From assembly GCF_000143415.4 (NCBI RefSeq), contig NW_003314270.1:3007668-3071667 (forward strand): a stretch of 64,000 nucleotides of DNA. Reading direction: 5' to 3'. The translations under genes were made by a program, and so were the position numbers. The notes under the pieces are model-generated. The model saw nothing but the letters and a program-made list of their open reading frames with translations. It had not been told where the DNA came from and did not search any database. This document shows, piece by piece, positions 19,357-52,411 of this stretch (position 1 is its first letter; each line of letters opens with the position of its first letter). Source of the DNA: Selaginella moellendorffii. Its lineage: Eukaryota > Plantae > Lycopodiophyta.

Positions 19357-19611
19357 GTGTTGGCCAAAGTAGAGATAATGTGTGAGAAACTCTGGATAGG
19401 ACCTTGAAATAAATCACACCGAAGTCAGTCGTGCTGCATGGGACTTCTACCTTGACTCGGTGTAGGTTGGTGGTGGAGACAGCGTAAGAAATACGTTGTG
19501 ATGGGATGCAACAGCATCTACCTTTCATCCCATTCTAAACAGTCTAACAAAGGCATTTGGTTCTAACTCCATGTGATGTAGAGAAGAACAAAAAAGGTTT
19601 GGTTCTTACAT

Positions 19612-22266: not shown

Positions 22267-24044
22267 TATAAGTGACTAATTTTTCCATTCTACTTTAGTC
22301 ATTTAACCACACCTTCAACCACTTGGAGGAGTCTCATTCACAACCTCCATAAATCTTATTCAGAACTTGAGGCTTGTTAGCCTTGAAAATGGCATCCATG
22401 CCACTCAACCTTTGCACTTGGTCCAAGTGCTCCATGTGTCTGATCCCATGATCAACACCCCAAGATACCACTGACATATCAGCCCATTACGCTAAGGCCA
22501 TGCCCATTCACCTTGGTCACACCAGTGGTCTGACATCATTTACATCACAATCCCGTTTCTCACAGATTGTGCCATCCATCCATGAGTGATCATCCCAGAT
22601 CCACTCCTTAGCACCTTTAGGATGCCTATAGACATGGGGTACAGCCTTCCCCAATATTTCTGTTATAGTCCCCACCAAGTCCCTCTTCTGTCCATGGCCG
22701 TGTTCACCAACACTACCACTAGGACAAAGCCCACAAACCTGACCACTAAGTCCCATTGTCCTTTAGGATTTCCTTACCACATGACTATATCCTTAGTCAC
22801 TATGCCAGAGGACTACTCCTTTTTCCACAGTCTGAGACTTTGGGACAACATTTCGGAACACTGTGGCCTTATGCGAGCTTTGTGAGTACTCTCCCTGCCT
22901 TCCACCTTTGGGTGCTCTAGGAGCATTGACCATTTGATCTCCCAGGGGAACTAGAGCCGGCTTTTGAACACTTCACCAAGCTACCCCACTTGTCAGTCTG
23001 TATTCACTCTAGCCTTGGACTTCTTAGTGGTTATCTCATCACCCAACACCTGGGTACAGCCTTCCTAGGCCAAACTAGCTCTACTGGGGCTAAATTTGCT
23101 CTACTGGGGTCCAACCCCCACACTTTCCCTACTATACTTTTGGAATCCTTTGTAGCCCCTCGACACCTTGTTTTGCATGTGTTGTGCAAATTTCACTTTC
23201 CCATTCTAAGAAGTTCTTTATTTGAGGGCACTATCATCTTTTTTTATATTTCGTGCCACTCTAGACACTAAGTTCCATTCTTACATAATTTGCACTAGGG
23301 TTATCCATAGCCTTATCATTTGGTTACCTTGTTGCCCCCTCCTTTGGAACTTTCACCTTTGCCAAATTAGAACATTTAAAAATCCATCTTTGGAAGCACA
23401 TTTTCTTTCCCACAATCCATTAGCATCCAACACATTAATGTTCCTTAGCTAACTTTGCCATTTGGATTCCTTCCAATGAATCTTATGGCCCAAACTTGGC
23501 CACTAGTCTTTAGCTTCTATTCGTTGATTGTTGCACCAAGTAACAAAGGATTACTACCTCCATCCTTAAGGCATTCGTTCCGTTCCATGACAAAGGCTCC
23601 ACTTTATCAAGTTTAGAGGGTGCTCACCCCTAATAAGTCTTTTTAGCATTCTCTGTTATAGGCTTTATCCATAGCCCAACTTTCTGACCCTTCCATGGGT
23701 CTTTCTTAAAGATTACTTCCTTGGACTCATTATGCCATTGCATTGACACAACTCATTTTCTTTATATGTTCTTCCCACTTGGTCACCTTGACCAAGCCAC
23801 ACTATCATCAATAGTTCAAATCAACACTTTGAACTAGGAACTTTATTCCTAAACCTTATAAGGACATTGTCCTTGTTTTAGCCATAAGATCACCTAGTGA
23901 TTTCACTTGAACCTCATAAGGACTTTATCCTTGTTTTAGCCATAAGATCACCTAGTGATTTCACCACCCCACACTTGGTGGTGCACCCAAGCTAACCCTT
24001 CCGGCTAAAGGTCTATAGCAACTAAGACTGAGTGTCCCCATTTC

Positions 24045-24718
24045 TGTAGCGCACCTTATCTCTCTCCCCTTAAGTTAACTGGAAAAGGGGCAATTGTTTG
24101 ATGAGAGAGCCCTTAGTGGCTATTTTATCCTCATTTATCCCCCAAGGTTCCAAGGATCCACTGTGACAATATATCCAAATTTCATCCCATGATCACATGC
24201 GCTACACTCACCCCCCCTTCAGAGATGTCAATGTCTTCATTGACTATTGACTAGCAACCCCTACTGAGCCAAGGGGAACCAGCACCTCCATTTCCACACT
24301 CAATCTACCAATCTTTCCATTGTGTAGACTAGCTATTCCATGTGAGGCAATTAGTCATCCACCCGTACCGCAGTCTCACGGTGGATACCTTCGTCCGTGG
24401 ATACTCCACATAAGAGGAAGGACGTACGTATGGATGCCCAATACGTACGATTTCAAATTTAGGGGTAGGAATATACCTTGTTCAAGGGTATATTATACTT
24501 TTAAATAGCCACTAATCAATGGGAATCGAACCCGTGCCATTTGCTCTGATACCAATTGTAGCGCACTTTATCTCTCTCCTCTTAAGCCAACTGAAAAAGG
24601 GGCAATTGCTTGATGAGAGAGCCCTTAGTGGCTATTTTATCCCCATTTATCCCCTAAGGTTCCAAGGATCCACGGTGATAGTATATCCAAATCTCATCCC
24701 ATGATCACATGCGCTACA
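24045..24718 (-). mobile_element. TRIM (miniature LTR retrotransposon), 674 bp
   Basis: 162-bp LTRs (24045-24206 and 24557-24718) with TGTAGCGCA...TGCGCTACA ends. PBS TGGTATCAGAGC, PPT GAAGGGGGGGTGAG, 5-bp TSD ATTTC. An empty paralogous site exists at about 33791-33810. Confidence 0.93.
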
Positions 24719-27700
24719 ATTTCATTCACCACATTCTTAGTGCCACTTGCACCAAAGTGTTCAAGTTAGATATGTCGAATTTTCATACTAAGCAATTTAA
24801 CTGTGTATCATGACTTTGGGGCATCCCCCACTTGGCGGTGTGCCCAAGCCATTCTCTTTACTAAGAGTCCATAGCCATCGAAAAATAAGTGTCCTCATAT
24901 TCCAAATTATCACCACACTCTAATGAGTTGAGACTCGAACCCAAGCAGTAGAGGGTCGGAACTCAAACCTAACCTCTATATATGCATTTACGGAAGGCAT
25001 CACCCAAGATGCATAGCGTGACTCCTCATGCTAGTGCACCATTTTATACTTAAAGCACACCATAGATCACAGCTTAGAAACCTAATTCCTCCACATTGTT
25101 AAGTCCTTTCACTTGACAAGTCTGTGACTATGCATAGACTCCTCCATGCTTAGCCCCATAAGCCACCCTTTTTTGAATTAGCACCTTCAACTAGGGTATA
25201 TATTCCCCCGACTTGCCAATCTCACCTAACAAGTCATCCAACCACCATAACATAGTTTATGCATAAGTGTGAAAGTCCTTAACCATCAACTTTCGTTCAA
25301 AGCCCTCTCTTTAAACACTCTGGAACTACTTTCTTAACCTTGATAGCTTTACCTCATTGCAAGTTTCAAGATTACGCTTCTGCTGTGCCACTTTGATTTC
25401 ACACATTATATGAATCATTTACCCTTGGCTTTCTAGGTATTTATCTACCTAAAATTGTTTTTAGGAACCTTCAAGGAACTTTGTTCCTTAACTTGCTAAG
25501 ACCTTTCCTTTTTGCAAGCTTTTTAATTACCATATGGTCTAATATGGATAATTCTATATTTTAGACTCTTTATGGCATCACGGTTACTAATAACAACTCG
25601 TTCGAGCCCCCACTTGATTCTCCACTCCCAACTTACATAACCACCCTTGATTGTGCCTTTTGATTCCTATGGTTCGGTTCTATCCCTTTATTATTTATTT
25701 TTTGGCCTCATATGTTTCCTTCTGTTATTTTCCTCTAGACTAGAAGGATATTTTTGCACTTTCTACCATGCCTTAGCAAGTATTCATAGGGATAAACCTA
25801 CCTAATAGCGTAGGGAGTGGTTCTTTAATTTGGGTATACTCACCTTGTAATCTCACACACCGGGATTAACATTGTTATTTATAGGCCTTATATATCTATC
25901 ATTAGCCTTGCCAAAATCCTTTTTTTGGATTTGTCTAATTTAGGTAGACGGATTTTTCCCATTTCCGCAACCTTGGACATTTGAATACCACTTCCTATCC
26001 ATCATTTGTTAGGGATATACTCCCTTGGGCCTTATTTAATGCTCTCATGACACGAAATACCACTTCCTAGTGTTTTAGAATGTTTATGTGTCTCTGTGAT
26101 GGCTTTCTTTGACAATGAGCATTCCCTTTCCGACATTGACTTACTATATTGCAATTAATTTATCCCCTATAAGGGTTATGTCTAACTTCTTTATCCCAAT
26201 AAGGTAGTTACCTTTTACCAGTTTAATCCATAATTTTGCACTTTTTGCTTAGTTGCTTCATAGTTGTCAAGTCTTACAACTCATTGCTAGTGCTTCCACA
26301 CCTCCATCATTATTTGGGTCACCACACTCCAACTGCATGCTTTCCAGTTTAGGCTATGCCATTCCCATTTCCCTTAGTATTCCTTTGGGAAGGGGTTCTC
26401 ATGAACCCGCCAACTTAACCTTAAAGCATCACGCTTTGGCACATTCAGTGTCTCCACATTATTGGCTCTATGAACCTACTTTCATGACACTTTTTACTTG
26501 TGTCTAGGTCTTTGCCAAGATTAATACAGTTGCTTCTCATGCCAACTATTCATTAACACTGCACTATAGAGTTTACACACAACTTTGTGTTAAAGTTGTT
26601 TTCTTTTGAGAATCTCTTTCCCATAACTTTAGCATGGCACATTCTGCCATCAATGAGATACCCACTATTCTCATACTCGGATCTTATGATACTCCCCATC
26701 TTTTGTGGGGCAAAATGCACCTTAGTCCAAATGCTGCTACCAATCCTTTAGGACCATTCATTGACTTTACTTGAGTCATCCAACATTTTAGACTTGCTAA
26801 TTCAATGATCTGTAAAGTTCTATTTTTGAGGTGCCAGTTCACTAGAATACAACTTCTTGTATTCATGTCCTACTCATAAGGTTCATCTTTGCAAGTATTA
26901 CTTCAACACTTGATTATTTTCCGTTCTCTGTAGGCTACCTTTGCCCCTTAGGACTATCTGCCCATATGATAAGAATACCAACTCATCCTTTGAGCACACC
27001 CTCAACTCTTTGGGTTTGTTCCAGCATTTATAAAAGGGTAACCCTGGCTACCATTTCAAGGACTGGTGTCCTCATTTGTATTTAACCTCTCACGGTCATT
27101 AATTCCTGTCTCAAATTCATGAACACCAGCCTTAATTATATGAGGATAATTGTGTGACTCCTTTATTGTTTTGGAGTCTCTATCTTTCCTATGATCCCAA
27201 CTATAATTGTTTACCACAATTACATTAGCCAGTTTGCTAAGTCAAACACTCATCTGGATCACATCCTCAATTCTCTGAGGAAAACTTTATATTGTTCCCA
27301 AGATCCCAAAGTCGTTCCATTATTATCTTTTTTCTATCCACCATCTCACCTATAAGTTCACACATGAACTGTAGTGGAGAGCCATGTCTTCCCGACTTGC
27401 TACTCCTCAAGGATAGACCCACTCCTAGGACCTTTCAATGCCAACATTAGTGGTAATATACTTGAGCACCAATAAAAGTTAGACTAAGGAATAACTTTAA
27501 TACCAAATTGTAAGTGACTAATATTTTTATTCTATTTTAATCACTTAACCATACTTCCAACCACTTAGAGGAGTCTCATTCACAACCTCCATAAGTCCCA
27601 TTTAGGACTTGTGGCTTGTTAGCCCCGAGAATGGCATTTATGCCATTCAACTATTGCACTTGGTCCAAGTGCTCCACGTGTCTGATCCTATGATCAACAC

Positions 27701-33010: not shown

Positions 33011-34373
33011 AGGCCTTAGCAAGCTAAAGGGACAGAGTTCCTTCGAAAGGTTCCCAATGATAATTCTAGGTAGTTGGATACTTAGAAAGCCAAGTGTAAA
33101 TGGTTCATAGAATGTGCGAAATCAGAGTGGCGTAGCAGAAGCGTGGTTTTGAAGCTTGCCATGAGGTGAGGCTATCAAGGTTGGGGAAATAGTTCCCAAG
33201 TGCTCAAAGAGAGGGCTTTGAACGAAAGTCGATGGTTAAACACTTTCACGCTTATGCATGAACTATGTTACAGTGGCTGGATGACTTGCTAAGTGAGATT
33301 GGCAAGTTGGGGGAGAACAAATACCCTAGTTGAAGGTGCTAACTTCAAAAGGGGTGGCCCATAGGGCCAAACATGGAGGAGTCCATGCATGATCATAGAC
33401 ATGTCAAGTGAGAGGACTTGGCAGTGTGGAGGAATTAGGTTCCTAAGCTGTGATTTGTAGCGCGCTTTAAATATAAGTTGGTGCACTGGCGTGGGGAGTC
33501 ACGCCAGGCATCTTGTGTGATGCCGTCCGTAAATGCATATACGGAGGTTGGGTTTGAGTCCTGACCCTTTAGTGCTTGGGTTCGAGTCCGAAATCACTAG
33601 GGCGTGGTGATGGTTTGGAATATGAGGATACTCATATTTTGGTGGTCATGGACTCTCAGTGGGGAGACTGATTTGGGCACACCGCCAAGCAAGGGATGCC
33701 TCAGAGTCGTGATGCACAGTTAGATTGCTTAGTGTGAAAGCTCAACATATCTAATTTGAACACTTTGGTGCAAGGGGGCACCAAGGACGAGGTGAATGAG
33801 ATGGGGACACCCAGTCTTAGTTGCTATGGACCCTTGGCTAGAAGGGTTGGCTTGGGCGCACCGCCAAGCGTGGGGGATGCCCCCGGGGTCATAGTCAACA
33901 ACTTAAAGGTTGAGGAGACCTAGTACCTATTAAGCTCTATTTCGTTAAAGTGGGAATTGTCATTATCCCACTTGTAAAATAAGGTTTCCAAACCTTTATA
34001 TAGTATATAAATATAACAAAATTCAACTGCATTGAGGCACATGCCATTTTATTTTAAACAAGGAAATGTCTACTCAATCACTTCTCCTCCCCCTGCCACT
34101 GCTTCACCTCTCTCTTCTCCTTGTCATCGTTATCCAATTTCTTTCCATCCTTTTAATATTGGCTCAGTTGCTTCGAGTCTAGGTGGAGCCCAAGTCCCCA
34201 TTCAATCTTTACTTTCCCCTTATTAATAAAACAACTTCGTAGACTTCCAATAACATGCTGTAACACTTCTAGTATAATGCAAATCCTCTCAAAGAATTGT
34301 CTTTTAATATTAATACAATGGCATGGAACCCCATGCCATAATAAGTTACATTTTTAAATAAATACATGCCATC

Positions 34374-37300
34374 TCAGACTGTTATTTTTTGCCTCCAACG
34401 CCTATACAATAATCTTGGAATTTCATCACTCTCCACACTATTAGGATTTAAACCCAATAGTAATGCCATCTCTTCTCTAATACGTCCACGCTCATATTCA
34501 GTGGTCGAAGAACCCATCTGGTTGAGCAGATTATGGAGATGCGGATAGTGCTTGGCTAGACAATATACATGCCATAAATGATGACTGGTGTCTGTCCGAT
34601 CAAATGGCTTCTGATATACCGTTCCATCTGCCATTTGGTTGATTTCTGCAGCCACCTCCTAGACTGGCCGGTTCTCTATCACCATCGCTCCAAGCCGTTT
34701 TGCAAGGTCCCCCAGAACATACGGTTTCTTCTCCCTAGTTTCCATACTGCAAGAGATGGGGTGCACTGCATATGTGTGCGTGTTTGCTGCAGTTTTAATC
34801 GGCGAGTCATCGATGATGAGGATTTCACTTGACCTAGCAGTCCGGTTCATCACTACAGCCTCTGGCTTGACGAAGATGGGCTTGCTACCCCTCACATGGA
34901 CCATAGTCAAGCAATCCTCCTGCGTTAGGAGAAAGTCAAATGGTAATATTACTTGCGTCTGATCGTGCATCATCTGTAGCAACGTTAATGCATTGTGGCG
35001 CATCATTGATGTCCAAACTCCCAATTGCAAATTGAACCCGGCCCTCTGTTTTAAGTGTCGCATGGTCATTATTAGATCCCGCAGTTTCTCCCGTGTAATT
35101 AATGTGAATCTGTCTCTTTTGACCAACTTGCGACCACAGGATTTGGAGGGTGCAGTGACATTCGAGGACGAGCCACGCTCATGGGAGAAAAGGATCAAAA
35201 ACGATACAGTACCTTCGCCGTGACTCTGAAATGAAATGTGTCAGCATAAAAAATGGTACAAGTCAATTTTACCATCTACAATATTAGCGAATGGTGCTCC
35301 CGATGGTCGTTGAGAGGGTTTTGGTCGAGAAAACGTGAAGGGCGGAAATACTCTCCTCTGCAATGTGGGGTCAATTGCATCCGATGGCGTGTGGGCACAT
35401 GCCATTTCAGCTGTAGACTCTGGTACAATTGGCTCAACAGTGGCATGGGGTGGTTCCGATGGCATGTGATCACACGCCATTTCAGCTGGTGCCTCCATTG
35501 GCAAAGTGGACATGACCGAACAGGCAGCAGGGGCGGTGTAGGGAGGTTCCAATGGCGCGTAGTCAGACGATTGGGCACACGTTGAGTCCGTTGGAAATGA
35601 GGATACGACCGGCTCGGTGGCTGGGGCGGCCTCATGCGGGTCCAATGGTGCCTGGTCACCGTCAGTTGGATACGTGGACAAGATTGACTCAATGGTATGG
35701 GCAGCATCAAGTGAAGTGTGGTCAGCTTGCTTGGCGTTTATTTATTATTATTATTATTATTACTATTATTTACCTGATGGTTTGTCTTGTATGACCTTCT
35801 TCCGCTGCTCTTTGGCCACCTCAGGCTGGCCATCGTCGTCATCATCGTCGTCATCGTTATTGTGATCGTCACCATTGTGAGGACCATCCAAGTCCTCTTC
35901 GTCCTCCTCTTCTTTGTCCTCCTCTTCGTCCTTCTGCTTTTCCTGCTCATTATCTTTCTCTGGCTCCTCATCCCCCTCCTGCATTTCTTCCATAGGCTGC
36001 TCAGGCTGGATGGCTTGTTCTTCCAGGACCATCTTGGGAAAATCATCTGGCCAAGTCTCCATCTCAAAATACAAGACATCCATAGCCTGTTTTAGTGCGT
36101 GACCTAGGACCGTATCCTCACCCGACTGTCTTAACATGGTTTCTGCACGTTCTTGCACCCTTCGAAGACGACGAGATGAGAAAAACGTGGCCCTGACTTG
36201 AAAAGCATCCCTCATCCATTGTACCTCTCCATTGAGATTGGGGAAGGGGAGTTTGCCATAGGAATCTGAGTCAGGAGGTGGTGACTGGCTGCTTTCACTC
36301 AGCCCTTGATCTGCAATGAATGGCATGAGCACACACGCCATAACCGCGAGGCATTACCTATCATCTTTTCGTTGCCCTTCTTCCTTTTCGAATCAAACGC
36401 CTCTGATCCCGATGACTGTCCAACGTGCTTTCGCTTTTTATGACCACTGTCAGTTTGAGCTTGGCTGGTGCTTGCCTGTTTTGCCTTTGAAGAAGTGTCT
36501 CCTGCAAAGAATGGCATGAGACCACACGCCATTGCAAATATAATTTGTACCTCCTTTTTTCCTATTGCTTGTCTGTTTGTCCTTCTTCGACGCGCCACCA
36601 GTGTGCTTTTCAGTCCTCGTGTCTGAATATTCACAACGATCTATAATCAAAATGGCATGAGGCCTCACGTGACCTTACCTTGTGCAGGTTGTGAGCTCGG
36701 CCCAACATGGGTATCTTCAACAATAGCTGTTAACGCCGTTTCAGCATCTGGGGGTGGCCACGCTCCTGCATACAGAGCTTGTGAGATAACATTTAAACTT
36801 AAAGTGCGTACTCACCAGGTTCGCAGAGAAGATACTGTTTTTCTTTGGCAACTGTAATTATATGCTCCATTGAAGTCACCTCTTCAATGGAGTTTGTCAT
36901 CGCAACACACGGGACACCCTTGAGTAGTGCGGCTCGAAAGAATAGTCCGCCATGTTGTACTCGACAACGCATTTGCCCTTGGAGTCAGAAGCAGGTGACC
37001 CACCCGCTATTGCGTTGAAGACCCAGCTGAGCATTTCCCATGCTGCACCTGGAGCTTTCTCTGGATTCGAAAGCTCCATAGCCGTCTTCAGTTCCTCAGG
37101 CACGGGTAAATTGACCTCCCTCAGATCAATTTGATCGGCCTTGTCGAACGAAGCTGGGAAGTCATTCCAGTCCCACTCTGCTGCAGGACCAATAACAAGT
37201 GCGAGTGTGAAGATGCGGACATTCGTCAGTATCTTCTTCTTAGCCATTATCCTATAGATCTCCTGCATCTCCTTGCCTTTCAACCGAGCCTTCACCTCGT

Positions 37301-39361
37301 TCAAGGCCTTCCAGAACTTGTGATAGGATTCGGAGTCGTAGATCATATAGTGGACTGAAGATTCCACCTCCGCAAGTCCCACCATTAAGTCAATGATGGA
37401 GCTGACTTCGTCTGCATGAGTGATCTCCTCGTTTGTGAAGTCCATCACACAAAAGATGTTCTTGACCTGCTCATCTCCACGGGAAACGATGCTCCTCCAC
37501 CTTTGATCCTCATCCGAATTCACGTATACCCGATAAGGTTCTCGATAGGCCTCTGCTGCGGGGTCAAGCTGTTTCTGAAGCCGGCGGTCAACATCCCTCT
37601 TAATGAAATTTTAATACTGATCCAACTTCTCAGCTTTACATTTCGTGGCATCCCGCAGCAGATCGATGAACTTGGGGGCCCCCTTCACGTACTCGTCGAT
37701 GTCTTCATTTGACAACTCCAGCTCTTCCATCATCTCTTGCGTGGTGTCGATGCTCACCCTCTCCACGGCCACTTGCTCGAAGATCCAATCTTTCAATAGC
37801 GCACGAGTTCTCAGAGTCGTGCACAAGTCCTCGTATGTCACAATATGGCCGGGAGTCATTTTGGTCTTGTTGAAGACTACCTCACCACGTAGAAGAGCAT
37901 TAGCCACTGTCAGAAGGTCGTCGTCATCTAGAGACCGCAAGAAACGCAAGGTGTTGAGCTTCAAATCATTGGGCTTCCGGCCGTCCTCCACACCCATTGA
38001 GTTTAGCAACTCCCCGTCATGGTACCTCCTTAGCACATCTACCCATTTGTCAAAAACAACTTTTGTTGCGAGTAGAATGTTATGGATGCTGAGTGTGTCA
38101 TTGACCCCCAGTGTTTTCGAGAGAAAACTCGAGAATTCCTGCAATGGAAATGGCGTGAGGCCACATGCTATGCCACATGCAACGAGGCTTACCTGCCAGG
38201 CGCTAGTTGCTGGTGCACATCCTTGTCCTGGTTTTTGTGGCTTCTTTAGTTGAACCCAGAGCTTCCGTGTTCGTGCCAATGTCTCGTGCAGACCCGATTT
38301 GTAGCACATTTCTTGCTTGACATTCTGCGCGTGGGAGATGTATATGATAGATCAGAGGGGCGAGTTGCCTTTTATCAAGCGGACAACTCTTGTCTTGAAG
38401 ACTTTCTTCACCTCCTCGCCCACCATAATATCCACAACTATCTCTTGCATCGCCAAGCTAGAATGCTGCCCTAAGACGGCATAGAACCGAATGTTCTGAT
38501 CGTCTAACACCTTCCTATTGATCAAGTCTGGAAACCTCGTCTCGCCCTTCATTGTTCGGTAGTAGGGGATCACGTCTGCGATGTCGGGTGTTACTGAACT
38601 TGCCAGCATCTTCTGCTTCAGTTTCTCCACCCACTCATTAGATACTAGCCTGTGGTTGTATTTGCTTTGGATGTCGATACGGCTCACGTCGATTGTATAT
38701 ACTTTGTTGGAATAGTAACAAGTACTATTATCTGCGACGATTTTTGCTGCCTCTTCTTGCTCTTTCTGCTTTTTGCGGCTCTTCTTTTTGGTGGGTGTAG
38801 TGTTCGAACCCGAGGCAATGGCATCACCGAGTAGCTTCTTTTTTGGAGCAGGAGAGTCGGACGTCGGCTTGAGCTTGACCACCCTTTTCTGCTTCGGGGT
38901 AGTTTCCAGATCGACCCCCTTCCCCTTCGCTTCGTGAACTGGAGTCACTCTCAATGGCTCAATGTTGGAATATAGTTTTTGAACATTGCCGTAGGTGAGG
39001 TCCGTGGATTCCATGTGATCTTCATAAACCCGCAGCGTCTTTGAAATTGTGGGCCTCCTGGACAACCTCTCCCTAGCTCCCTCTAGGAATTCCTCATAGC
39101 CGCTGCCCCCCTCCGGGAAGCCGCTAGGATGTGCAAGGTGGATCTTGAAGGCGGACGCTGTCTCTACCACAAGTGCCAGTCTATATTCTTGCACGGAACG
39201 TCTGTCACTTGGATGAGGATCCCCATGCATTCTTTTCTCCCACCATCTGTGTTGTATAGCCTCAGATCCTCGCCTTCCATCCTGAAAGTCCAACTGGTGA
39301 GCTCCTCCCCCTTCTCTGCATCCACATTGACAGTGGCTGGAAGAAGAACGCAATTCCTCGC
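34374..39361 (-). pseudogene. Transposon accessory gene or genes: ParB/Srx-like domain, helical region, acidic/low-complexity linker and FCP1/NIF-like HAD phosphatase domain; multi-exon and disrupted
   Basis: ORFs 38352-39353 and 37611-38309 are in frame across one TGA. Further ORFs are linked by GT-AG introns and frameshifts. Motifs NHR...LGQHS..AM and GVWTS...ILIIDDSPIK. The true start and gene count are uncertain. Confidence 0.65.
35738..35770. repeat. (TAT)n microsatellite
   Basis: Direct reading; it lies in a probable intron of the minus-strand accessory gene. Confidence 0.85.
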
Positions 39362-39889
39362 CTGTTCAGAAATGCACAACAATTAAAGCTGACAGATGAA
39401 AAACTAGCAGCTGGAAATAACGTGAGGCCACACGCCATTCACCACTGCATCAGATGTCTTGAGGCTGCATCCTAAGACGGCGTGAGGCTACACGCCATCT
39501 GTAACCGGACTGCACTCGAGAGCCCAATCGGTGCATGCCAATGTTGCTACTGAATGGCATGTGGCCTCATGCCATTTTCTACTTGGCCTAAAAGACTTAC
39601 CATTTGAAGCCGAATGGAGGCGTGACAATTGAGGCCAAACTCGCTGGCGAATGTGCACTGTGTGTGCAGCGGATCGTAGCAACAAGGCTACTCTGCCACT
39701 TACAGTTGGAGAGTGGCGCTGAAATCTCCCGGGACGCCAAGTGGGCTGCGTGTGGGTGGCAGAGTGGGCGGCGGAGTTGGCGGCGAAGTTACAAACTGGG
39801 TGTGTCTTGAAGTGGACGCCGATGCACACGAGCGCGATGCGAGCGCGAGTGTGATGCAAGCGCAAGTGGACGCCGATGCACACGAGAAA

Positions 39890-41409
39890 CCTATAGAGAA
39901 GGTAGATGAGCGCGAATGTGAGCGTGATCGCGAGTGGGAGCGCGATGCGAGCGCGAGTACGATGCAAAACCTAACCTCACACACGCAAAATGTCACAACG
40001 GTTGGTAATCCCGCAACGTCATCATTCCTTGGACTTGGGCGCCACCATTAATTTCTGGATCGCTGCGCGCATGCATGCACGTGAAATCCAAAAGAAATCC
40101 GCAACATCATCATTCCTCAGACTGCATGCACGCGAAATCTAAAAGAAAGATCATGATTGGGATATCATTTAATACCCTTGCTATATTTATACCATGCATG
40201 ATTGGATATTCCAAAGCATCTTGTATTTCCAAAAATGCCAGATGTTCAGCTAAATAAAGAATGGTATACAATGTCCTTCTTGATGACCCTGCAAAGAAGC
40301 ATCTTAATCGGACACCACATGAGACAACACGAGCCTTACAAGGTTTTAGGGGCATTTGCCATAAATCCAACCGTTATTTTGCTCCAAGATTCTACAGTTT
40401 GGTGTGCATTGACCTTTCCATTGACACTGCAAAGGGACATCACAATCAGATGCGGGATTACAAGAAACCAACTTCACTAACTCTGGTTTCACCAAGATCT
40501 ACATAAGGAGTTATGAAATGAAAGGACCCTCTCTATTGAAATGTGTTTATGGTCCTAGGGGCATTGTGACATATCAAAGGATTTTGAATCAAGTTCTGTA
40601 TTTGCATGTTTATCAAGCTACTGAATTGCTAAACCCTAAACCCTAAACCTGTAGAGAAGGTGGATAAGCGCGAATGTGAGCGTGATCGCGAGTGGGAGCG
40701 CGATGCGAGTGCGAGTGTGCGAGCGCGAGTACGATGCAAAACCTAACCTCACACGCGCAAAATGTCACGACGGTTGGTAATCCCGCAACGTCATCATTCC
40801 TCAGACTTGGGCGCCACCATTAATTTCTGGATCGCCGCGCGCATGCATGCACGTGAAATCCAAAAGAAATCCGCAACATCATCATTCCTCAGACTGCATG
40901 CACGCGAAATCCAAAAGAAAGATCATGATTGGGATATCATTTAATACCCTCGCTATATTTATACCATGCATGATTGGATATTCCAAAGCATCTTGTATTT
41001 CCAAAAATGCCAGATGTTCAGCTAAATAAAGAATGGTATACAATGTCCTTCTTGATGACCCTGCAAAGAAGCATCTTAATCGGACACCACATGAGACCAC
41101 ACGAGCCTTACAAGGTTTTAGGGGCATTTGCCATAAATCCGACCGTTATTTTGCTCCAAGATTCTACAGTTTGGTGTGCATTGACCTTTCCATCGATACT
41201 GCAAAGGGACATCACAATCAGATGTAGGATCACAAAAAACCAACTTCACTAACTCTGGTTTCACCAAGATCTACGTAAGGAGTTATGAAATGAAAAGACC
41301 CTCTCTATTGAAATGTGTTTATGGTCCTGACATATCAAAGGATTTTGCATCAAGTTCTGTATTTGCATGTTTATCAAGCTACTGAATTGCTAAACCCTAA
41401 ACCCTAAAC
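39890..41409. repeat. Tandem duplication of about 760-770 bp, each unit ending in telomere-type (CTAAACC) repeats
   Basis: Identical short ORFs recur at an offset of 772 (40075/40847). Telomeric heptamers are at 40629-40649 and 41390-41409. Confidence 0.92.
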
Positions 41410-42529
41410 ATGTGGCAAATGCTGCGTGAAGAAAGATGCCCTTTCTGGGCAAATGCTGTAAGAGGTAGATGCCGAGCAGATGTATCTCAGGCTAGCGAAG
41501 AGGACAAACGAAAGCTAGCTATAAACATGACGGGATGCAAATAGATTACTAGGCTAGTCCTGCGAAAATCAAAAACCATAATTGAAAACATTGAAAATGC
41601 AAAAAGAAAGGTTTATAATATTTTTGAATTTTAAGCAACAAAAGGAATGTAAGTAGGGCATGTGTTTGTAAGTTTAAAAATGCCTCAACCACTTAAATTC
41701 CCAAGTAAATAAAGCTGTTTCTATTTTTGGTACAGGTAAACTTTATAGCGTGTGGGCTCATGCAATTTTGAACCCAAAAATGCACCAAAAAATGCTCGAC
41801 TAGCATTATTCTTTGAATGGCGTGTGGCCTTATATTGCCATAAATGGACGTACACACACAGCATAATTATTCCTTTACACGGCGAATAATCTTGGCGCGG
41901 ATCGCTGACATGGCATGGCAAAGTTCGAATCACTGACATGGCACAGCTGAATCGAGGCAAGGACATGATGTGACAAAGTTCAACCTCCGACAGCAAAGTC
42001 TAGAAGCTACTCAGTTTGAAATTTGTCAGAGGAATCATAAGATCTGGTTTGTCAGAGGATTTGATGTGACGTTCAAGCGTGTGTTATTTTTGAATTCTTG
42101 AACTCATTCCTAGGTCTATCATTTTTGTGCGCCGTGTTCTTGGTTCCGCTGAGCGCAATGAGCGCTGCTTGTGTAAGCGGTGTTGTGAGCTGTGGTTTAT
42201 GCGTCTACGAGCGGTTGCGGCATTGCGAGCGCCATTGCAAGCGGCAGTTTATGCGAGTGGCAGTTTGTGCGAGCGGCGCTACGAGCAGTTGCGGTGTTGC
42301 GAGCGGCGCTACGAGTAGTTGCGGTGTTGCGAGCGGCACTATCTTTGGTGTGGCTACCGCTTCCTCTTGATATTCGGCACTTGTGCTTCCTGGTATGTTC
42401 ACCATGGAATGGCTTAGGACCACATTTAGAAATGGCATGAGGCCACATGCCATCTTGGGCCCTTGCAATTTCATGGCTAGCGTATTGTCATGTATGTTTT
42501 TACTTGCTTGCAGCTGTGTGTATATCAAG

Positions 42530-42720
42530 ATGGCATGAGGCATCATGCCATCTTTGGCCCTGCTAGCCTATTGCCATATTCCTTTTGCCTTGCTGCAACT
42601 ATATATATTTTTGTATGGGTGACTAGTCACGCACACAAAAATATATACAGTTGTAGCAAGGCAAAAGGAATATAGCAACAGGCTAGCAGGGGCCAAAGAT
42701 AGCGTGAGGCCTCATGCCAT
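42530..42720. repeat. 191-bp near-perfect loopless inverted repeat
   Basis: Centred on GTGACTAGTCAC (42619-42630). The arms end in palindrome copies. Confidence 0.9.
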
Positions 42721-42908
42721 TAGTGGTACCACTAATGGCATGAGGGCTCATGCCAATTTTGTGAATGCGAAATTTCATGTGGGTGTCAATAGCATGTTTG
42801 AATAATGGCATGTGGCCTCATGCTATTGAGGTTGTTTGGTATATTATGATTTAGGCCATTATCCAATCATTTTTTGTATGGTCTTAACTTCTTTTCTGCA
42901 CTTTCAGA

Positions 42909-45806
42909 ATGGCCTCCGCAAGTGCGACACATGTTCCCTCCGTGGATCTTAAGAACCGTGCTACATGGATTCAGGCAAAGGTGTTTCTAAACAACCCCGA
43001 GGGGGAGGTGGTAGCTGAGGGCTTAGCCACAGTTGTCGATCCAAGAGATGCGGTTGCTAATCAAGAATTGGGCTGGGATGATATTGGAGTTGCAATTTTA
43101 GAGGTTGTTGACACAAAAGAAAACAGTCTGACTATTGGAAGCATTGTGCGGTGGAAATTGAGGCACTTAGTGTTTGAGAATGTGAAGGATTCATAATCAA
43201 ACACCACTACAACTGATGACAGAACATCTCTTCATGGGAAAAGAAAGTACACCTTCCTAAAGCACAGCCAAAGGGATCTGAGCAACGAACCGAAAAGGCA
43301 GAAAATGGCGATGGAGGTTCGAATGGTCTCGACAGTTGCTTGTTGCAAGAGGAGGTGCTGTCAACATGCTGATTGGGATGCTATTGAAGAGGAGAGAGCA
43401 AGATACAAGACATTGTCCTGGAAGGCAGCTCGCAATTTTGTGTATGAGGCATTACGGTCATCTGTTGATGCTTCAGAACATCAGGTGGGGGGCATGGTCT
43501 TCCAGAGGGGTTTGGTCTGCATGAAGGCATGGAGAATCATTTATGGAGTCCCTCGAACCACATTCTACAGAATCAAAACTGAGTTCGAGGAACAAAGGGT
43601 TCAACAGGCAGTCCATGGGAACGACGGTACTCACAAAACCAAGGGTCATGTTGTATATGGAGAGGCAATCTTCAAGAGTTTTGTCGAGACATGTAGCGAG
43701 CAGCAACCACATAAAACCCGCCTCTTGGAAGATGGAACTCAAGACACCCAACGAGTTCTCCCTTCCATGTATACCAAGGGGGCCATATTGGAAGATGTGA
43801 ATCGGGAGCTCCAGAGTAATGGCTACAAGAAGCTGAGCCAATCTAGATTTAGTAGATTGTGGAGCAACAGGTTCAGGGATGTGAGTATAGGAAAGTACTC
43901 TAGCTTTTCAAAGTGTGACGAGTGCACTGCTATCAAAATGGCTTTGTCGAAGAATTCTTGCATCGCTCAAGAGCGAGAGACGTTGGTTAGAAGGCGGCTT
44001 GACCACAACATCGAGCAGAGAAGCTGCAGGACTGCATATTATCATAACAGGATTCTCTCCATGGAGAGACCTGACTCTTACCTCTGCATCATCCATGACA
44101 AAATGGACCAGAAAAAGATGTGCTTACCTCGACTCAATCCTGCCCCCAAGGCAATCTCTTCATCCATGCAACTGCCTGTATCTCTGTTTGGCATAATCGC
44201 TCATGGGCATGGTGCCCAGAACTATGGGAACTTCTTTGTACCTCTATGGGGTGGCGGGGGTGCAAACATGATGATTGCGTCCCTAGCAAAACACTTAAGG
44301 TCTCTGCAAAGTGCGCAGACTGAGCTGAACGGCCAACCCTTGCATAAGGCCCTTGTCGATCGAACCCCATACAGGATTCAGCTGGAGGAGGAGCAAAGGC
44401 TTGCAGTATCGCGTGGGGCCCCATGCCATCCCAGTGAATATGTTGGCCGTCAGATTGTAGGGTTATCACGTGAGGCCTCATGCCATTCCGACGAGGCTGG
44501 TCGCCCGGTGAATGCACAGCCTCATCCAAATGAAGCAGAATCTCAAGGAAGTTCTTGCGGCCGATGTGGCCTTCCACCCCATCTTCTGCTCCAAACAGAC
44601 AATGCTGGCAGTGAGAACAAAAACATCTATGTCTTCGCGTACTTGGCGATGCTTGTTGCCAAAGGCATATTTGAAACGGTTACACTTGGCTTTCTCATGG
44701 TTGGCCACACTCATGAAGACGTCGATGCCATGTTCAGTCACCTGGCAGAGTCCCTCCGGCGATCCAATGTCCTCACCCTCCCACAACTCTACGATGAATT
44801 CCAAAATTGCATCAAAGGCACTATTGAAGCTGCACTTGTGACAGAGGTTCCAGACTTTAAGGGGTTTGTAAGAGGCTACATCAGGGACAGATCCGAAACG
44901 CTGATTGGCCACTCCAAGCCTCTTCAGTTTCATTTTAGCATGCGTGACGGTGCTCCAGTGATGAGGTACAAGATAAGAGAATGGGACACAGTGTGGCTGC
45001 CAGTGGACGGCATTGAACTCTTCAAGAGAGATCCCATAACTGGGGAACCTATGATTCCTTAGGGTTCCCCACGGCCGATGCACCCGGATGGACTCAAAGA
45101 CCAGGAAAGTATAGTGGCCGGGATTAGACAGCATATTGCCTTCTGGAAGAGGGGGTTGGTGTTTGGTGGAGAATCCTATTTTCAGAGGTGCAAGCCTTTG
45201 ATCGAATACTGGGAGAAGATTATATCTGCTATCCAAAATGGGCCGGTTGTATATGAAGAATTGGAAGAGTCCTTTTGGCCAGAACCCAGAGCACCAGATA
45301 GTAGCGGAACAATGTCCTTTGGAAATGCAGTGACAGATAATGATGTTGAGGATCACTATTGTGGGCCGAGGAACAAGAAGCCGGATTCAGCATTCAATCC
45401 AGTACAGGTCTGCAAAGGAATGGTCGTGCTTGTCAGACCAAGTAATAAAAAACAAATGATATGGGTGGGGCGCTGCATCACTGATGCAGAGGAGGACGCG
45501 GAAACTAACTCCTTCAATGTAACTGTGGAGTGGTTCAAGCCAAGTTCCGGATATACGAAGGATTGCCTAGAAAAGAGATGGGTGCTGAATCCAAGGGATC
45601 CCAGCATGAGCATATCAGTGGATAATCTTATGCATGGTTGGATGCGGAAGTAGAGTGCCACTATCACCTTGCCAGACCATGCAAGAGATGCAGCAAGAGC
45701 ATTCATAACCCGGGTTCAAGGTGAGATTCATTAATATTCCTTTACTAAGTTTCTAATGTATTTTATTTCAAGGTGAATAATCCGAATCTGAATCAGAGGA
45801 GGCGTG
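42909..45806 (+). pseudogene. Sola-like DDD transposase, one reading frame broken by premature stops
   Basis: ORFs at 42909, 43305 and 45078 share one frame, with stops at 43194, 45060 and 45651. Motifs CCKRRCC, VCMKAW, FSKCDEC, IIHDKMDQ, QTDNAGSENKN and FLMVGHTHEDVDAMFS. A probable small last exon follows intron 45721-45772. Confidence 0.85.
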
Positions 45807-48800
45807 ATGGCATGTGGCCTTACGCCATTCCTAGGTGAGATGATACAAATAACAAGTATAAATTCTTAGTTGTTCTAGCAAATCTTACTTAAAGTTCAAG
45901 GTGAACAAGCCGAATATGAATTCATCGGATTGTTATAACAAATTGCGAGGTGATGGCATGAGGCGATACGCCATTTGAGAGTGGTAGCCATTCCTATATG
46001 AGGTGAGTGAAATATTTATTAGAAATACCTCATTCAATTGTGCACTTCTAAGTCTTGGTCCACTCAGTACTGTTTGCATGTTTTTATTTTAATTCTTTCT
46101 CTAAAATGTTATTTAGCATGTGGCTTCATGCCATTGCTCTCCACAATCATGCATTGAATTTTTCTATCCTTGCATAATACTTCTCCATATATATAGCATA
46201 TGCGCACATGTGATATGGTTCATTAGGCCTGATATAGTGTGTGAGGTAAAACAAAGATGATGTGATATATGCATTTACCAATCACACGTGCATAAATCTA
46301 ATAATATGGCGTGTGGCCCATATTAATGGCACATAAACCCATATTGTGGGCTTACGTGCTTTATGTACCATCATTCCCTTGCAGCGTGTGTGTTGGTTTC
46401 CTTTTATAACACAACGAACTCCATATTTTAGGGTGAAGAGCGTTCTCATGGCAAGCACAAAATCTGTAAGTGAGGCAGAAAAGGAGACGGAGAAGGAGAT
46501 AGGTGAAGATGTAGAATATATAAGTCTTCCAAACTCCCCGTACTATACTCCAGGTGATAATTTTTCTGAACAAATGGCAACATTAACAACTATCGAGAAC
46601 GCCCCAGTAACGTCCGAGACAATAATCCAAAGCAAAACAACTAACCCGGAGAAGGATGATAGTACCGCTGAGAGTACCAAAAAGGAGGTGTCCACTAGCG
46701 CTTAGGCTTATAATGGCATGTGCCCTCATGCCATTTACTTGATCACCAAATACCTTTTTCCCTTTGCACTAGTATATCTTAATACCGGTATGAGAAATAG
46801 AATGGCATGTGCCCTCAGGCCTTTTACTAAATCACCTTTGAAAGAAATGCAAGCCTCTATGTCGTAAAAAAAAGGTACTAGAGAAATTCCTTAATAATAT
46901 GAATGTTATTTAGTTTCATGAAAATACACTAAGGGTCAAATGAGTTAAATGACTTCTCCAGACTAGCAATGCCTCTTGCTACACCTTCACAATTAGATTC
47001 GTTAGAAAAAGATAACATTGAATAATATCTAAATGTTCTCACCATTAAGTTATATGTCTGGCTAATAGGAATGACGTTCATCTTGGAAAGCTCACCACAC
47101 GCTCAATGAATAAACAAATAGTGTGTGCGCGCATGCCATCGCTCTTCTTTAGCTTCAGATTCGGCTTGTTCACCTTGACAATGAGATTTATTATACAACA
47201 AGATGGACTCAGTCTGGACACAAAGTCACCCCGCTAGTCACCATGCCCCAGATATGTCTAGCCCCTGGACAAAAAACATATAATTTCACGTCATTTTCAA
47301 ATACTTGAAAATTTGTACCTAGTCCCATTTTACTGAATAAATCCCACTTTAATGAAATAGAGCATTATTGGCAAACCTATTAAGATGCTAAGGTTAGATC
47401 ACTATGTGATTTTATGGCTAAAACAAGGATAATGTCCTTGTGAGGTTAAGGGATAAAGTTCCAAGTTCAAAGTGTTGATTGGAACTATTGATGAAGATGT
47501 GGCTTGGTCAAGGTGACCAAGTGGGAAGGACACCTAAGGGAAATGAGATATGTCAATGCAATGACATAGTGAGTCCGAGGAAAATAATCTCTATAAGAGA
47601 CCCATGGGAGGGTCACAAAGTTCGGCTGTGGATAGACCCCATAGTAGAAGATGCTAAAGAGACATACTAGGGGTGAACACCCTCCGGACATGGCAAAGGA
47701 GAGTCTTTGCTATGGAACTGAAAGGATACCTCAAAAATGAAGGTAGCGATCCTATATTGCTGGGTGCAACAATCAAGGATAGAAGCAAAAGATTAGTGGC
47801 TACGTAAAGAGCTATGGGAATTATGGGAAAGAATCCAAATGGCAAAGTTAGGCCAAGAACACTAAAGTGTTGGGTGCTAACGGATTGTGGGAAAGGCAAT
47901 ATGTTCCCAAGGATGGATTCCTAATTGCTCCAATGTGGCAAAAGTGGAAGCTCCAAGGGTGGGAGCGGTAAGGTAGCCAAATGATAGGGACGTGGACAAC
48001 CTTAGCACAAATTATGATAACCGGAACTTAGTGCCAAAGGTGGCACAAAATCAAAGAGAGGACGATGTTGCCCTCGAGTAGAGAACTTCCTAGGATGGGG
48101 AAGTGGAGTTGCACAATATGTGCAATGCAAGGTGTCAGAGACACTCAGGAAATTGACTTCGAGAAGTCAGAATTAAAAGTTCCAAAGTGCAAGGGTTATA
48201 TCAATGGAAAGTGAGACTACTTGAGAATGAGTAATGGGATTGAGTTAGAGAAGGTGTCTCTAACAAGTTTAGTGAGAACTAAACCAATAAAAGGAGAGAA
48301 CCACCACAAGTGGTCCAATCAGTCTCTAAGTTGGAGAAACTATTCTCCTTACAGGATGGAGAGGGCATGGTGAGCCTTCAATATTAGACCATTGACGAAT
48401 ATTGGCGAGGGGCCAAAGATGGAAATAGTAATACAAGTTAGCATTACTTTATAAAATAGTTTATCGTTCAATGAGGACATTGAACTTCGTCTATGGGTGG
48501 TGGAGTTGTGAGACACAAAATCCCTAGGCCCCAAAGTGGAGCCGAAAGGGTGCCATGTGGTAGTGGCGAAAGCGAAAGCCAAACGAGCGTAACACGTTTG
48601 GACTAAAAGCTCTGACATGAAAAGGTCGAGAGTGGGAGTGGAACTCCAAACGAAGTGCTCGAGGAACGAGCACGAAGCAAGCAATAAGTGAGGCTCCAAA
48701 AAGGGACCCAAAAGGACCAACACATGACACGTGAAAGTGTCCGAGATGGACCCGAGTTGGGGTCCGAGAAGGACCCTGAGATGGAGTCCGAGATGGAGTC

Positions 48801-51155: not shown

Positions 51156-51594
51156 GAAAAATGGATCCTTGCCATCGAGAGTCTTTTTGCTGTGTTGATC
51201 CATGAGATCGACGCCAGAAAACTTAACATGTAACTTTATTTACCCTTTGGAGAACTCAAAGTGGGTGGTCAACCTTGTCCCTACCTACAAGGCAAATGGA
51301 AAACTTTTTTTTTTTTCTTTGAGAGATGATTTGGCATATCCCTTAGCTGACAACTCCATATACTTTTTGTTGGGGCTGAGCCTAACTTACTGGTGCCATG
51401 AGGCTAACTTTAGCACCATAAGGATGAAGCCTCCAAATTCACGACCACCAGCAAGATCATAGCAAAGCTAGAGAGGCCAAAGCTATATTTTTTTAAAATC
51501 CACCATTGCCATTGCTAGGCTTTAGCTTTCGCTGCTGCTAGCAAGATGGAAACAAGGATGAGTAGGTGATCATTTTGACGGTTTAGTGATGCCT
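51156..51594 (-). pseudogene. TOC75: TOC75 5' fragment (copy 3), interrupted by a ~135-bp RT-like fragment
   Basis: Matches about 10275-10860 with deletions. The insert at about 51226-51360 reads FIYPLENSKWVVNLVPTYKANGK. Confidence 0.8.
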
Positions 51595-51597
51595 TAT

Positions 51598-52110
51598 TGT
51601 AGTATATGTGGTTTTTACCTTTTATCCTATGGTGATTTACTATCATGGAGTGGAACTTAAACTCTGTATATACCACATGTCACATGCCATGTGTCTAAAG
51701 GACAATGGTGTGAAACCCAAGTTTCAGAGCCTTAAGCCACTAAATGAAAGAATTGTGCCAAACTCCTAAGTATAAAGCCAAGGAGCAAAGATATTGGAAC
51801 ACATAGTAACTCTTGAGCATGCAACTCAAAGAGTGAAAGGACAGGAGCATGAAGCGATTTAAAACAATCCTAGAGTATCTAGTATCCTAATGTCATGACC
51901 AACATGTAAAACGGAGCCAAATAAAGTTTAATGCTATTTCAACATACCGGTGGCCTAACATGAGGATATGGGTGCTCCACCAACTAATATAGTATGGAAC
52001 TTAGGCTTAAACTTAAGTCGGATGCAAAACAAAAACAAGCATGCAAGTGGGAGCTAAACTATACCTCATGTTAGTCAGTCATGCCCGACCTACCCACTAC
52101 CTTTACTATA
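51598..52110. mobile_element. Probable solo LTR or other insertion replacing the tRNA region of copy 3
   Basis: TGTAGTA...TACTATA ends and absent from copies 1 and 2. No clear TSD. Confidence 0.35.
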
Positions 52111-52411
52111 TATTTAATACATTAAATAAATACAAGATAATTCATTACTTTTTAGCTAACAAACTTGCACCATTTATCCCAGAGGCTGGACCACTTTTTA
52201 TTTCATGGGTCCAGTGTTTGGGAGAAGGGTCTCCACAATTGGTGCAATCTTGAAAAGCTCCTTAAGCTTGAATTCACCATGTGACCAAGCACTTGTTTTG
52301 GAGGTAATTTTGTGCTTTAAATATGTGGCTGCATTTATATAGTTAGAATGACTTTCAGTCTCATCACCACAACTTTTGTATTACATAATATGTTTATATA
52401 ATTTCAAATAT

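What the first reader, a model, noticed from the sequence alone, without database searches (positions are those of the whole stretch)
36311..38192. Palindromes sit inside tiny introns, 9-11 nt from the 3' splice site
Four predicted GT-AG introns of the minus-strand gene (36311-36357, 36502-36550, 36641-36678, 38139-38192; 38-54 nt) each contain one palindrome just upstream of the AG. The introns may host DNA binding sites without costing protein sequence. Alternatively they may have spread as palindrome-bearing units, or the hairpin may allow protein-controlled splicing (inference).
Basis: partly seen in the sequence, partly recalled or inferred. Interest (0 to 1): 0.7.

Follow-up and report, generated by a model that had tools for sequence, protein, structure and literature searches.

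The report
Transposon palindromes doubling as branch points
A 22-letter DNA palindrome is repeated 27 times along one 13-kb plant transposon, likely as landing sites for a protein the transposon makes, and the four copies inside its predicted tiny introns likely sit at a fixed spot because part of the palindrome matches the splicing branch-point signal.

Summary
The four GT-AG segments exist and each holds a palindrome 9-11 nt from an AG. Intron 38139-38192 is backed by homologs; the other three by reading frame. The 38-nt call is doubtful: a 56-nt form (36623-36678) fits as well or better. No spliced read was found. The palindrome (ATGGCRTGWGGCCWCAYGCCAT) is not an intron feature. It occurs 27 times, across a 13.4-kb multi-copy DNA transposon (33935-47374) that carries a DUF7869 gene and a predicted 1,559-aa ParB/DUF3723-like, methyltransferase-like, NIF-phosphatase gene. 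23 copies are non-coding; only 4 lie in small introns, and 3 of the 7 small introns lack it. The fixed spacing is best explained by splicing geometry: the right arm reads CTCAY with its A at -16 to -18, as in palindrome-free introns of the same gene. The arms do not covary and the RNA hairpin is predicted in only 2 of 4 introns, which favours a double-stranded DNA site over a splicing hairpin. The first intron's position is shared with 25-30% identical homologs, which argues against an introner. Some related DUF7869 loci carry their own repeated palindromes. It likely works like VANDAL/VANC motif arrays; binding is untested.

The parts
33935..47374 (.). DNA transposon copy, about 13.4 kb, decayed, inserted in an LTR retrotransposon
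   Evidence: Bounded by an inverted repeat pair and a 10-bp direct repeat; flanks match one LTR-element paralog at 23162-25505; all 27 in-element palindromes fall inside; other copies seen in contigs
33925..33934 (+). Left copy of 10-bp direct repeat ACCTATTAAG (candidate target-site duplication; overlaps the left inverted arm)
47375..47384 (+). Right copy of the 10-bp direct repeat
33926..33958 (+). Left arm of imperfect terminal inverted repeat (33 nt, 85%)
   Evidence: pair I5
47339..47371 (-). Right arm of terminal inverted repeat
   Evidence: pair I5
34374..39603 (-). Predicted 9-exon gene, 1,559 aa in the family-majority reading: ParB/DUF3723-like domain, helical domain, methyltransferase-like region, low-complexity linker, NIF/HAD phosphatase-like domain; broken in this copy
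   Evidence: open frame; 11 homologs; atlas leads via P0065; NIF
39362..39600 (-). Predicted first intron (239 nt, ATG|GTAAGT) holding three palindromes (39417, 39477, 39554), none within 50 nt of the 3' splice site
38139..38192 (-). Intron, 54 nt, phase 0, palindrome 38150-38171, CTCAC with A at -18; position shared with distant homologs
36766..36815 (-). Predicted intron, 50 nt, phase 1, no palindrome, CTCAC with A at -17
36623..36678 (-).
36502..36550 (-). Predicted intron, 49 nt, phase 1, palindrome 36511-36532, CTCAT with A at -16
36311..36357 (-). Predicted intron, 47 nt, phase 1, palindrome 36320-36341, CTCAT with A at -16; last 31 nt match the 49-nt intron at 28 positions
35726..35773 (-). 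Predicted intron, 48 nt, phase 1, (TAA)n run, no palindrome, weak AAG acceptor (uncertain)
35226..35272 (-). Predicted intron, 47 nt, phase 1, no palindrome, CTGAC with A at -16
35384..35480 (-). Two palindromes inside coding exon (35384-35405, 35459-35480), 75 nt apart, reading CACAY rather than CTCAY on the sense strand
34026..34339 (.). Two palindromes in the left non-coding end (34026, 34318)
41745..42826 (.). Seven palindromes upstream of the DUF7869 gene (41745, 41817, 42432, 42530, 42699, 42735, 42805)
42909..45653 (+). DUF7869 (PF25273) gene, likely the transposase; interrupted by stops in this copy
   Evidence: (E 3e-42)
44408..44486 (+). Two palindromes inside the DUF7869 frame, in the variable insert (8-10% identity to homologs there)
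45807..47139 (.). Seven palindromes in the right non-coding end (45807, 45953, 46113, 46193, 46713, 46802, 47118)

Best explanation
The palindrome is repeated 27 times along one DNA transposon and is likely a family-specific double-stranded DNA site for an element-encoded dimeric protein, and the copies in the predicted tiny introns likely keep their fixed spacing because their right arm (CTCAY) serves as the branch point. Shown: the repeat, its confinement to the element, its depletion from coding DNA, the independent variation of its arms, and CTCAY with the A at -16 to -18 in all four. Inferred steps: (1) short-tract copying (tandem duplication, conversion) seeded copies along the element; (2) selection kept them where they cost nothing: ends, intergenic DNA, introns, variable protein loops; (3) a 22-nt site in a 47-54-nt intron has little room and either supplies the branch point or sits 5' of it, so surviving copies face the way that puts CTCAY on the sense strand with the next AG 9-11 nt past the palindrome; (4) the binder is most likely the ParB/DUF3723-like protein whose gene holds these introns, otherwise the DUF7869 protein; (5) the likely purpose is to coat the whole element to resist silencing or to assemble it for transposition, as VANC does for VANDAL elements.
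For: 27 copies in 13.4 kb, 3 in the other 50.6 kb. Density per kb: exons of the minus gene 0.43, DUF7869 frame 0.73, other non-coding 2.9, small introns 12.0, first intron 12.6. Mean flank identity between copies is 5.3 of 20, chance level, while the core is kept. Paired columns match independence; at the variable R/Y pair 12 of 27 are Watson-Crick against 14.3 expected, Fisher p = 0.42. yTnAy with the A at -17 and -16 also occurs in 2 of 3 palindrome-free small introns of the gene, and at -12 to -27 in 7 of 12 host introns. All 4 intronic copies have YTCAY on the sense strand, against 16 of 46 strands of the other copies and 1 of 4 coding copies. The gene's ParB-like nature: atlas features 0.97 to DUF3723 and model matches to ParB_N clusters, TM 0.42-0.55, for homolog P0065; PHROG ParB-like E 0.15 for the window's own piece. 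6 of 36 related DUF7869 loci of 3.5 kb or more hold 4-16 copies of a palindrome of their own, against at most 3 in 8 control stretches and in simulations. VANC21 binds motifs in introns, intergenic and terminal non-coding DNA of its element (PMC5735166, passages).
Against: No binding data. The ParB assignment rests on leads only: no Pfam hit, my model of that part had pLDDT under 50 and gave no ParB match. The orientation bias is weak once dependence is allowed: p = 0.015 for four, 0.04 for three, 0.12 for two independent cases. Branch-point use is inferred from motif and spacing only. In raw RNA reads of three samples (about 12% of each run read) the four introns had zero depth, so splicing is unobserved. 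Small introns are somewhat richer in copies than other non-coding DNA (4 in 333 nt against 19 in 5,703 nt, p = 0.035), which a pure by-product does not require. Palindrome families in relatives mostly lie in tandem arrays, and 30 of 36 loci show fewer than 4 copies.
Confidence: 0.6

Rival explanations
1. The palindromes are RNA hairpins that bury the branch point, so that splicing of the gene is switched by a protein or by conditions.
For: In the 49-nt and 47-nt introns the helix is predicted with pair probabilities 0.93-1.0 and the branch A is paired. The sense orientation gives G-U rather than A-C at the variable pair in those two.
Against: The helix has probability 0 in the 54-nt and 38-nt introns. 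No covariation over 27 copies. 23 of 27 copies are not at such a position, many in intergenic DNA and on either strand.
Confidence: 0.12
2. The introns were created by a mobile palindrome-plus-acceptor unit (introner-like) or by intronization of palindrome insertions.
For: Last 31 nt: 28 identical between the 49-nt and 47-nt introns, 22 between the 54-nt and 38-nt forms. Three consecutive palindrome-bearing introns are all phase 1 in a low-complexity linker. Their positions could not be checked in homologs.
Against: The 54-nt intron's position is shared with homologs of 25-30% identity: P0057 and P0060 end at WK|V-stop and P0062 runs into unrelated sequence at FQ|V where its close relative P0059 continues. 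The 5' halves of the introns are unrelated. Palindrome-free introns are phase 1 too. No intron-less copy in four contig sets from two samples. None of 12 host introns carries the motif.
Confidence: 0.1
3. The palindromes have no function: they are relics of slippage and gene conversion that survive wherever they do no harm.
For: Several copies are local duplicates (35384/35459, 46713/46802, 42699/42735). Depletion from exons and retention of a branch point are expected under neutrality too.
Against: The core is conserved while flanks are random, over 13 kb and in both orientations, even inside two reading frames. Unrelated palindromes recur in the same kind of place in related elements.
Confidence: 0.13
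4. The palindromes act as DNA hairpins or cruciforms in transposition or replication of the element.
For: The ideal 22-mer is a perfect palindrome; larger hairpins exist at 42553-42696 and 42694-42761.
Against: No covariation; the W/W pair is Watson-Crick in only 10 of 27 copies. The element has inverted ends and a direct repeat, which point to ordinary cut-and-paste.
Confidence: 0.05

Closest known systems
VANDAL/VANC anti-silencing systems of Arabidopsis (PMC5735166; passages read)
   Same: Long DNA transposon with an accessory gene; a short family-specific motif that accumulates in introns, intergenic and terminal non-coding DNA, often through tandem repeats; different motifs in related families.
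   Different: Motif here is a 22-nt palindrome, not an 8-9-nt asymmetric word. The transposase candidate is DUF7869, with no Mutator-type Pfam hit. The accessory protein is ParB/DUF3723-like. Binding and demethylation are untested. The passages I read do not report a VANC motif doubling as a branch point.
Introners (PMC9860276; passages read)
   Same: Sequence similarity among some introns and a palindromic part.
   Different: Similarity is limited to a 31-nt 3' tract; one intron position is ancient; no spread into host introns; that survey found no introners in land plants.
ParB/parS-type systems (recalled) and DUF3723 of fungal Starships (bioRxiv 10.1101/2021.12.13.472469; passages read)
   Same: A ParB/DUF3723-like protein encoded on a mobile element; a palindromic DNA site in many copies. 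DUF3723 is a conserved Starship cargo gene.
   Different: No tyrosine recombinase here; plant host; the protein adds methyltransferase-like and NIF phosphatase-like parts; site sequence is unlike the parS consensus I recall.
Transposase- or TnpA-bound cis-motif networks (Spm TnpA, AtMu1; bioRxiv 10.64898/2026.08.24.746577, abstract and outline only)
   Same: An element-encoded protein recognises cognate copies by sequence; the DUF7869 protein is the alternative binder here.
   Different: Sites here are spread along the whole element and into coding frames rather than being mainly near the ends (the latter recalled).

Membership tests
U2 spliceosomal introns | GT-AG ends | tested here: met
   4 of 4
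U2 spliceosomal introns | Removal restores the reading frame or matches a gap in homologs | tested here: met
   Homolog gap for 38139-38192; frame for the other three, with the 3' end of the third ambiguous
U2 spliceosomal introns | Branch-point motif at host-like distance | tested here: met
   CTCAY with A at -16 to -18; for the 38-nt form the A is only 21 nt from the 5' end against 32-37 in five other small introns of the gene
U2 spliceosomal introns | Spliced junction seen in RNA | tested here: inconclusive
   No RNA depth over the introns in X8-X10 or X12; contigs of X1-X4 are unspliced and are probably DNA
Introners | Introns similar along their length | tested here: not met
   Only the last 31 nt are alike (28 of 31 and 22 of 31); 5' halves differ
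Introners | Recent insertion: position absent in homologs, or presence/absence among copies | tested here: not met
   38139-38192 position shared with three distant homologs; no intron-less copy; the three linker introns have no homolog coverage
Introners | Copies in many host genes | tested here: not met
   0 of 12 host introns in two genes of the window; the whole genome was not available
Introners | Direct or inverted repeats at intron ends | tested here: inconclusive
   By eye: a 4-nt GCAG match in one intron, only AG in the others; no formal test
Cut-and-paste DNA transposon | Terminal inverted repeats | tested here: met
   33 nt, 85%
Cut-and-paste DNA transposon | Target-site duplication | tested here: inconclusive
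   10-bp direct repeat, but it overlaps the left arm and the one empty-site paralog has a deletion there
Cut-and-paste DNA transposon | Multiple related copies | tested here: met
   Majority form differs at 38 of 2,201 sites, 33 of them deamination-type; minor variants at lower depth
Cut-and-paste DNA transposon | RNase H-fold DDE/D transposase | tested here: inconclusive
   Conserved acidic motifs HDKMDQ, LQxDN, GHTHEDxD; model pTM 0.40, fold searches without a clear match
VANDAL/VANC system | Family-specific motif accumulated in non-coding parts, introns included | tested here: met
   own motifs in 6 of 36 related loci
VANDAL/VANC system | Mutator-type transposase | tested here: not met
   Only DUF7869 at E up to 0.05 in Pfam
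VANDAL/VANC system | Accessory protein homologous to VANC | not tested
   No VANC sequence was fetched; Pfam gave no family for the N-terminal pieces
VANDAL/VANC system | Protein binds the motif and removes methylation | not testable with these tools
   Needs EMSA, ChIP and methylome data
ParB/parS-type pair | ParB N-terminal fold with GxH-type motif | tested here: inconclusive
   GQH motif in the alignment; atlas leads; PHROG E 0.15; own model too poor there
ParB/parS-type pair | Protein binds the palindrome | not testable with these tools
   No protein-DNA test on offer
Sola superfamily (recalled lead) | Transposase similarity to Sola1-3 and a 4-bp target duplication | not tested
   No reference Sola sequence available; the papers read gave no motif to compare

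The most novel reading that the evidence does not exclude
A clade of DUF7869 transposons runs a ParB/parS-like system inside eukaryotic chromosomes: a ParB/DUF3723-methyltransferase-phosphatase protein loads on family-specific palindromes spread along the element to shield or mobilise it, and the same 22-mer is the branch point of the protein's own introns, giving one word two codes and a feedback loop on its own splicing.
Probability: 0.15. Interest if true: 0.85.

Novelty: new variant of a known kind. Interest (0 to 1): 0.5.

Why it matters
Motif arrays read by a transposon's own protein are known from VANDAL and Spm elements of flowering plants. This would be an independent version in an uncharacterised transposon group (DUF7869 gave 0 papers in the library searched), built from a ParB-like protein and long palindromes, with each family apparently evolving its own site. 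It gives a direct, cheap test for two domains of unknown function (DUF7869 and DUF3723-like). It also shows how a binding site can be fitted into a 47-nt intron by overlapping the branch point. The intron part alone is a modest finding, mostly explained by geometry.

Tried and rejected
No whole genome is held. Run search: no RNA holder listed. X12 laid nothing (can be false). First homolog search with the read-through protein found none; the profile search returned only P0065. Viral contigs: 0 of 136 stretches for DUF7869, 0 exact palindrome matches. The window's palindrome in the 62 loci: scattered 1-2-mismatch hits in 4 loci, no arrays. Fold searches for both proteins gave no clear match; PDB sequence searches nothing useful; atlas search for a DUF7869 homolog without PF25273 clusters gave only scores under 0.8; NCBIfam and PADLOC gave nothing for the ParB-like part. 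Earlier findings: four look-ups, nothing. Paper searches: DUF7869 0; DUF3723 with ParB 0; transposon/ParB/Selaginella/methylase/Sola, nothing relevant in the 20 of 24 listed; DNA transposon/palindromic motif/internal repeats/lycophyte/intron, 1 unrelated paper. Rejected: chance; intron-specific motif (23 of 27 elsewhere); selected hairpin. One search used a wrong acceptor for the first intron and was redone. In one search the 35226-35272 intron was cut 3 nt off and was redone. In one search the distance value 2 with 'None' means no AG within the tail.
Full report
Setting. The window is land-plant DNA: PPR, S-domain kinase, Toc75, OVATE and acyl-ACP thioesterase genes with LTR retrotransposon pieces. 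Twelve host introns placed by reading frame in two genes are 53-80 nt long, so tiny introns are normal here. A lycophyte such as Selaginella is my inference, not a test; PMC6157073 (passages) says its intron lengths differ sharply from other land plants.

The observation. The four segments have the stated ends and lengths and each holds one 22-nt palindrome, 11, 11, 9 and 9 nt before the last base. For 38139-38192, which is 54 nt and stop-free, homologs decide: P0055, P0059, P0063, P0064 and P0065 (a Riccia sorocarpa annotation) lack 16-18 residues exactly there. For the other three, contigs from other copies show that this copy's stops and frameshifts are its own. With the majority letters, 2 of 32 subsets of five introns leave the frame open, both needing the three reader introns plus 36766-36815, and eight introns give one 1,559-aa frame. 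That test is softer than it looks: 3,302 open GT-YAG paths exist in the linker. The 56-nt form fits host lengths and has a second yTnAy with its A 32 nt from the 5' end, like the 32-37 nt of five other small introns of the gene, whereas the 38-nt form would branch at 21. In favour of 38 nt, its last 31 bases match the 54-nt intron at 22 positions. Splicing was not observed: raw reads of three RNA samples, about 12% of each run, had zero depth from 35940 to 38849 and at most 2.2-fold at 39044-39625 in two of them; contigs of X1-X4 cross the introns unspliced and are probably DNA.

What the palindrome is. The consensus is ATGGCRTGWGGCCWCAYGCCAT. A profile trained on 20 copies outside the four introns finds 27 copies between 34026 and 47139, 3 weak hits in the other 50.6 kb, and a mean of 0.135 in 200 simulations. 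That span is bounded by a 33-nt inverted repeat and a 10-bp direct repeat, sits inside an LTR element, and holds two divergent genes: a DUF7869 gene and the intron-bearing gene. The majority form differs at 38 of 2,201 sites, 33 of them deamination-type, 25 of those in CG or CHG context: a methylated, decayed copy of a multi-copy family. Copies per kb are 0.43 and 0.73 in the two coding regions, 2.9 in other non-coding DNA, 12.0 in the small introns and 12.6 in the 239-nt first intron, whose three copies lie far from its acceptor. The two copies in the DUF7869 frame fall in its variable insert. Three of seven small introns have no copy.

Why the spacing is constant. The right arm reads CTCAY, the yUnAy branch-point consensus (consensus recalled). 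Its A lies at -18, -18, -16 and -16. Palindrome-free introns of the same gene have CTCAC at -17 and CTGAC at -16, and 7 of 12 host introns have a yTnAy at -12 to -27. All four intronic copies present YTCAY on the sense strand, against 16 of 46 strands of the other copies and 1 of 4 coding copies. The bias is modest: p = 0.015 for four cases, 0.12 if only two are independent, and the 49-nt and 47-nt introns share 28 of their last 31 nt, so they are not independent. A simple placement count shows that a 22-mer in a 47-54-nt intron must either supply the branch point or sit wholly 5' of it; neither is possible in 38 nt under my assumed limits, and the 56-nt reading is the second solution.

DNA site or RNA hairpin. 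Over 27 copies every paired column matches independence; the variable R/Y pair is Watson-Crick in 12 against 14.3 expected (p = 0.42) and the W/W pair in 10. Flanks are at chance identity, 5.3 of 20, apart from a few local duplicates. In sense RNA the helix is predicted at 0.93-1.0 in the 49-nt and 47-nt introns, burying the branch A, and at 0 in the other two. This is the pattern of two half-sites on duplex DNA; hairpin control remains possible for two introns.

Age of the introns. P0057 and P0060 end at WK|V-stop, and P0062 leaves homology at FQ|V where its close relative P0059 continues, all at the column of the window's WQ|V. A phase-0 intron here is therefore likely older than the family-specific palindrome, which entered an existing intron. 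I could not read those homologs' DNA. The three linker introns have no homolog coverage.

The proteins. The minus-strand product has a GQH-motif domain whose homolog P0065 scores 0.97 to DUF3723 clusters and matches ParB_N clusters by model, TM 0.42-0.55 on a low-confidence model; the window's piece hits a ParB-like PHROG at E 0.15. A VEYxCGG motif shared with P0055 suggests a methyltransferase-like region (by eye and recall), and the C-terminus is NIF/HAD-like, as in P0063. My own models were too poor to confirm either fold. DUF7869 as transposase is inferred from conserved acidic motifs and the element's ends.

Relatives. Of 62 DUF7869 loci, the 36 of 3.5 kb or more were scanned (first 14 kb of longer ones): 6 hold 4-16 copies of a palindrome of their own (L003, L014, L043, L048, L056, L058), against at most 3 in 8 window controls and in two simulations per stretch. 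Some of the 36 look like the same element filed more than once. Most such copies lie in tandem arrays beside the DUF7869 gene; L048 has them inside frames too. None carries the window's motif as an array, and none showed the partner gene, so intron placement was not testable there. L048 and L056 carry a C5 DNA methylase beside DUF7869 and L028 fuses it with SET, PHD and PhyH domains (68 of 121 listed frames scanned), which fits a group of elements that meddles with chromatin.

Comparison and verdict. The closest working model is VANDAL/VANC (PMC5735166, passages), but membership fails on the transposase. Introner membership fails on three tested features. I found no paper naming DUF7869 or describing this arrangement; the library lacks most subscription papers and I read no supplements. 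New variant of a known kind; interest 0.5.

Noticed in passing
window 33486-33507 and 25013-25034: A near-match to the palindrome lies in the LTR element about 430 nt outside the transposon's left end, and in its paralog. It may be chance or may hint at target preference.
   Followed up: no
window 42553-42696 and 42694-42761: Two abutting long hairpins (72-nt arms at 89%, 34-nt arms at 85%, no spacer) among the palindromes upstream of the DUF7869 gene.
   Followed up: no
window 39887-41413: About 770-nt tandem duplication (94%) between the two genes, each unit ending in telomere-like AAACCCT repeats (near 40630-40649 and 41390-41410).
   Followed up: no
window 33925-33958 and 47339-47384: The 10-bp direct repeat overlaps the left inverted arm and resembles the outer part of the right arm, so the ends are asymmetric.
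   Followed up: partly
L048:502-2343, L056:7-1644, L028:1878-9890: DUF7869 loci carry chromatin cargo: C5 DNA methylase genes, and a SET-PHD-PhyH-DUF7869 fusion.
   Followed up: partly
L056:2394-2680, 6502-7278, 13800-14242: At least 26 copies of an imperfect palindrome (GTTCCATGAAAAGTGGAAC type) in alternating orientation, in arrays on both sides of the DUF7869 gene.
   Followed up: partly
P0065 residues 100-420: A Riccia protein of this family links DUF3723 (Starship cargo) to ParB_N clusters in the atlas; a search for DUF3723 with ParB found no paper.
   Followed up: partly
window 8409-19610 and 51156-54832: Duplicated Toc75-like plus S-domain kinase block, with a third, truncated copy near 51-54 kb.
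   Followed up: no
window 39044-39625: A few RNA reads (depth up to 2.2, first mate on +) cover the 5' end of the minus-strand gene in two of three samples, without a listed joint.
   Followed up: no
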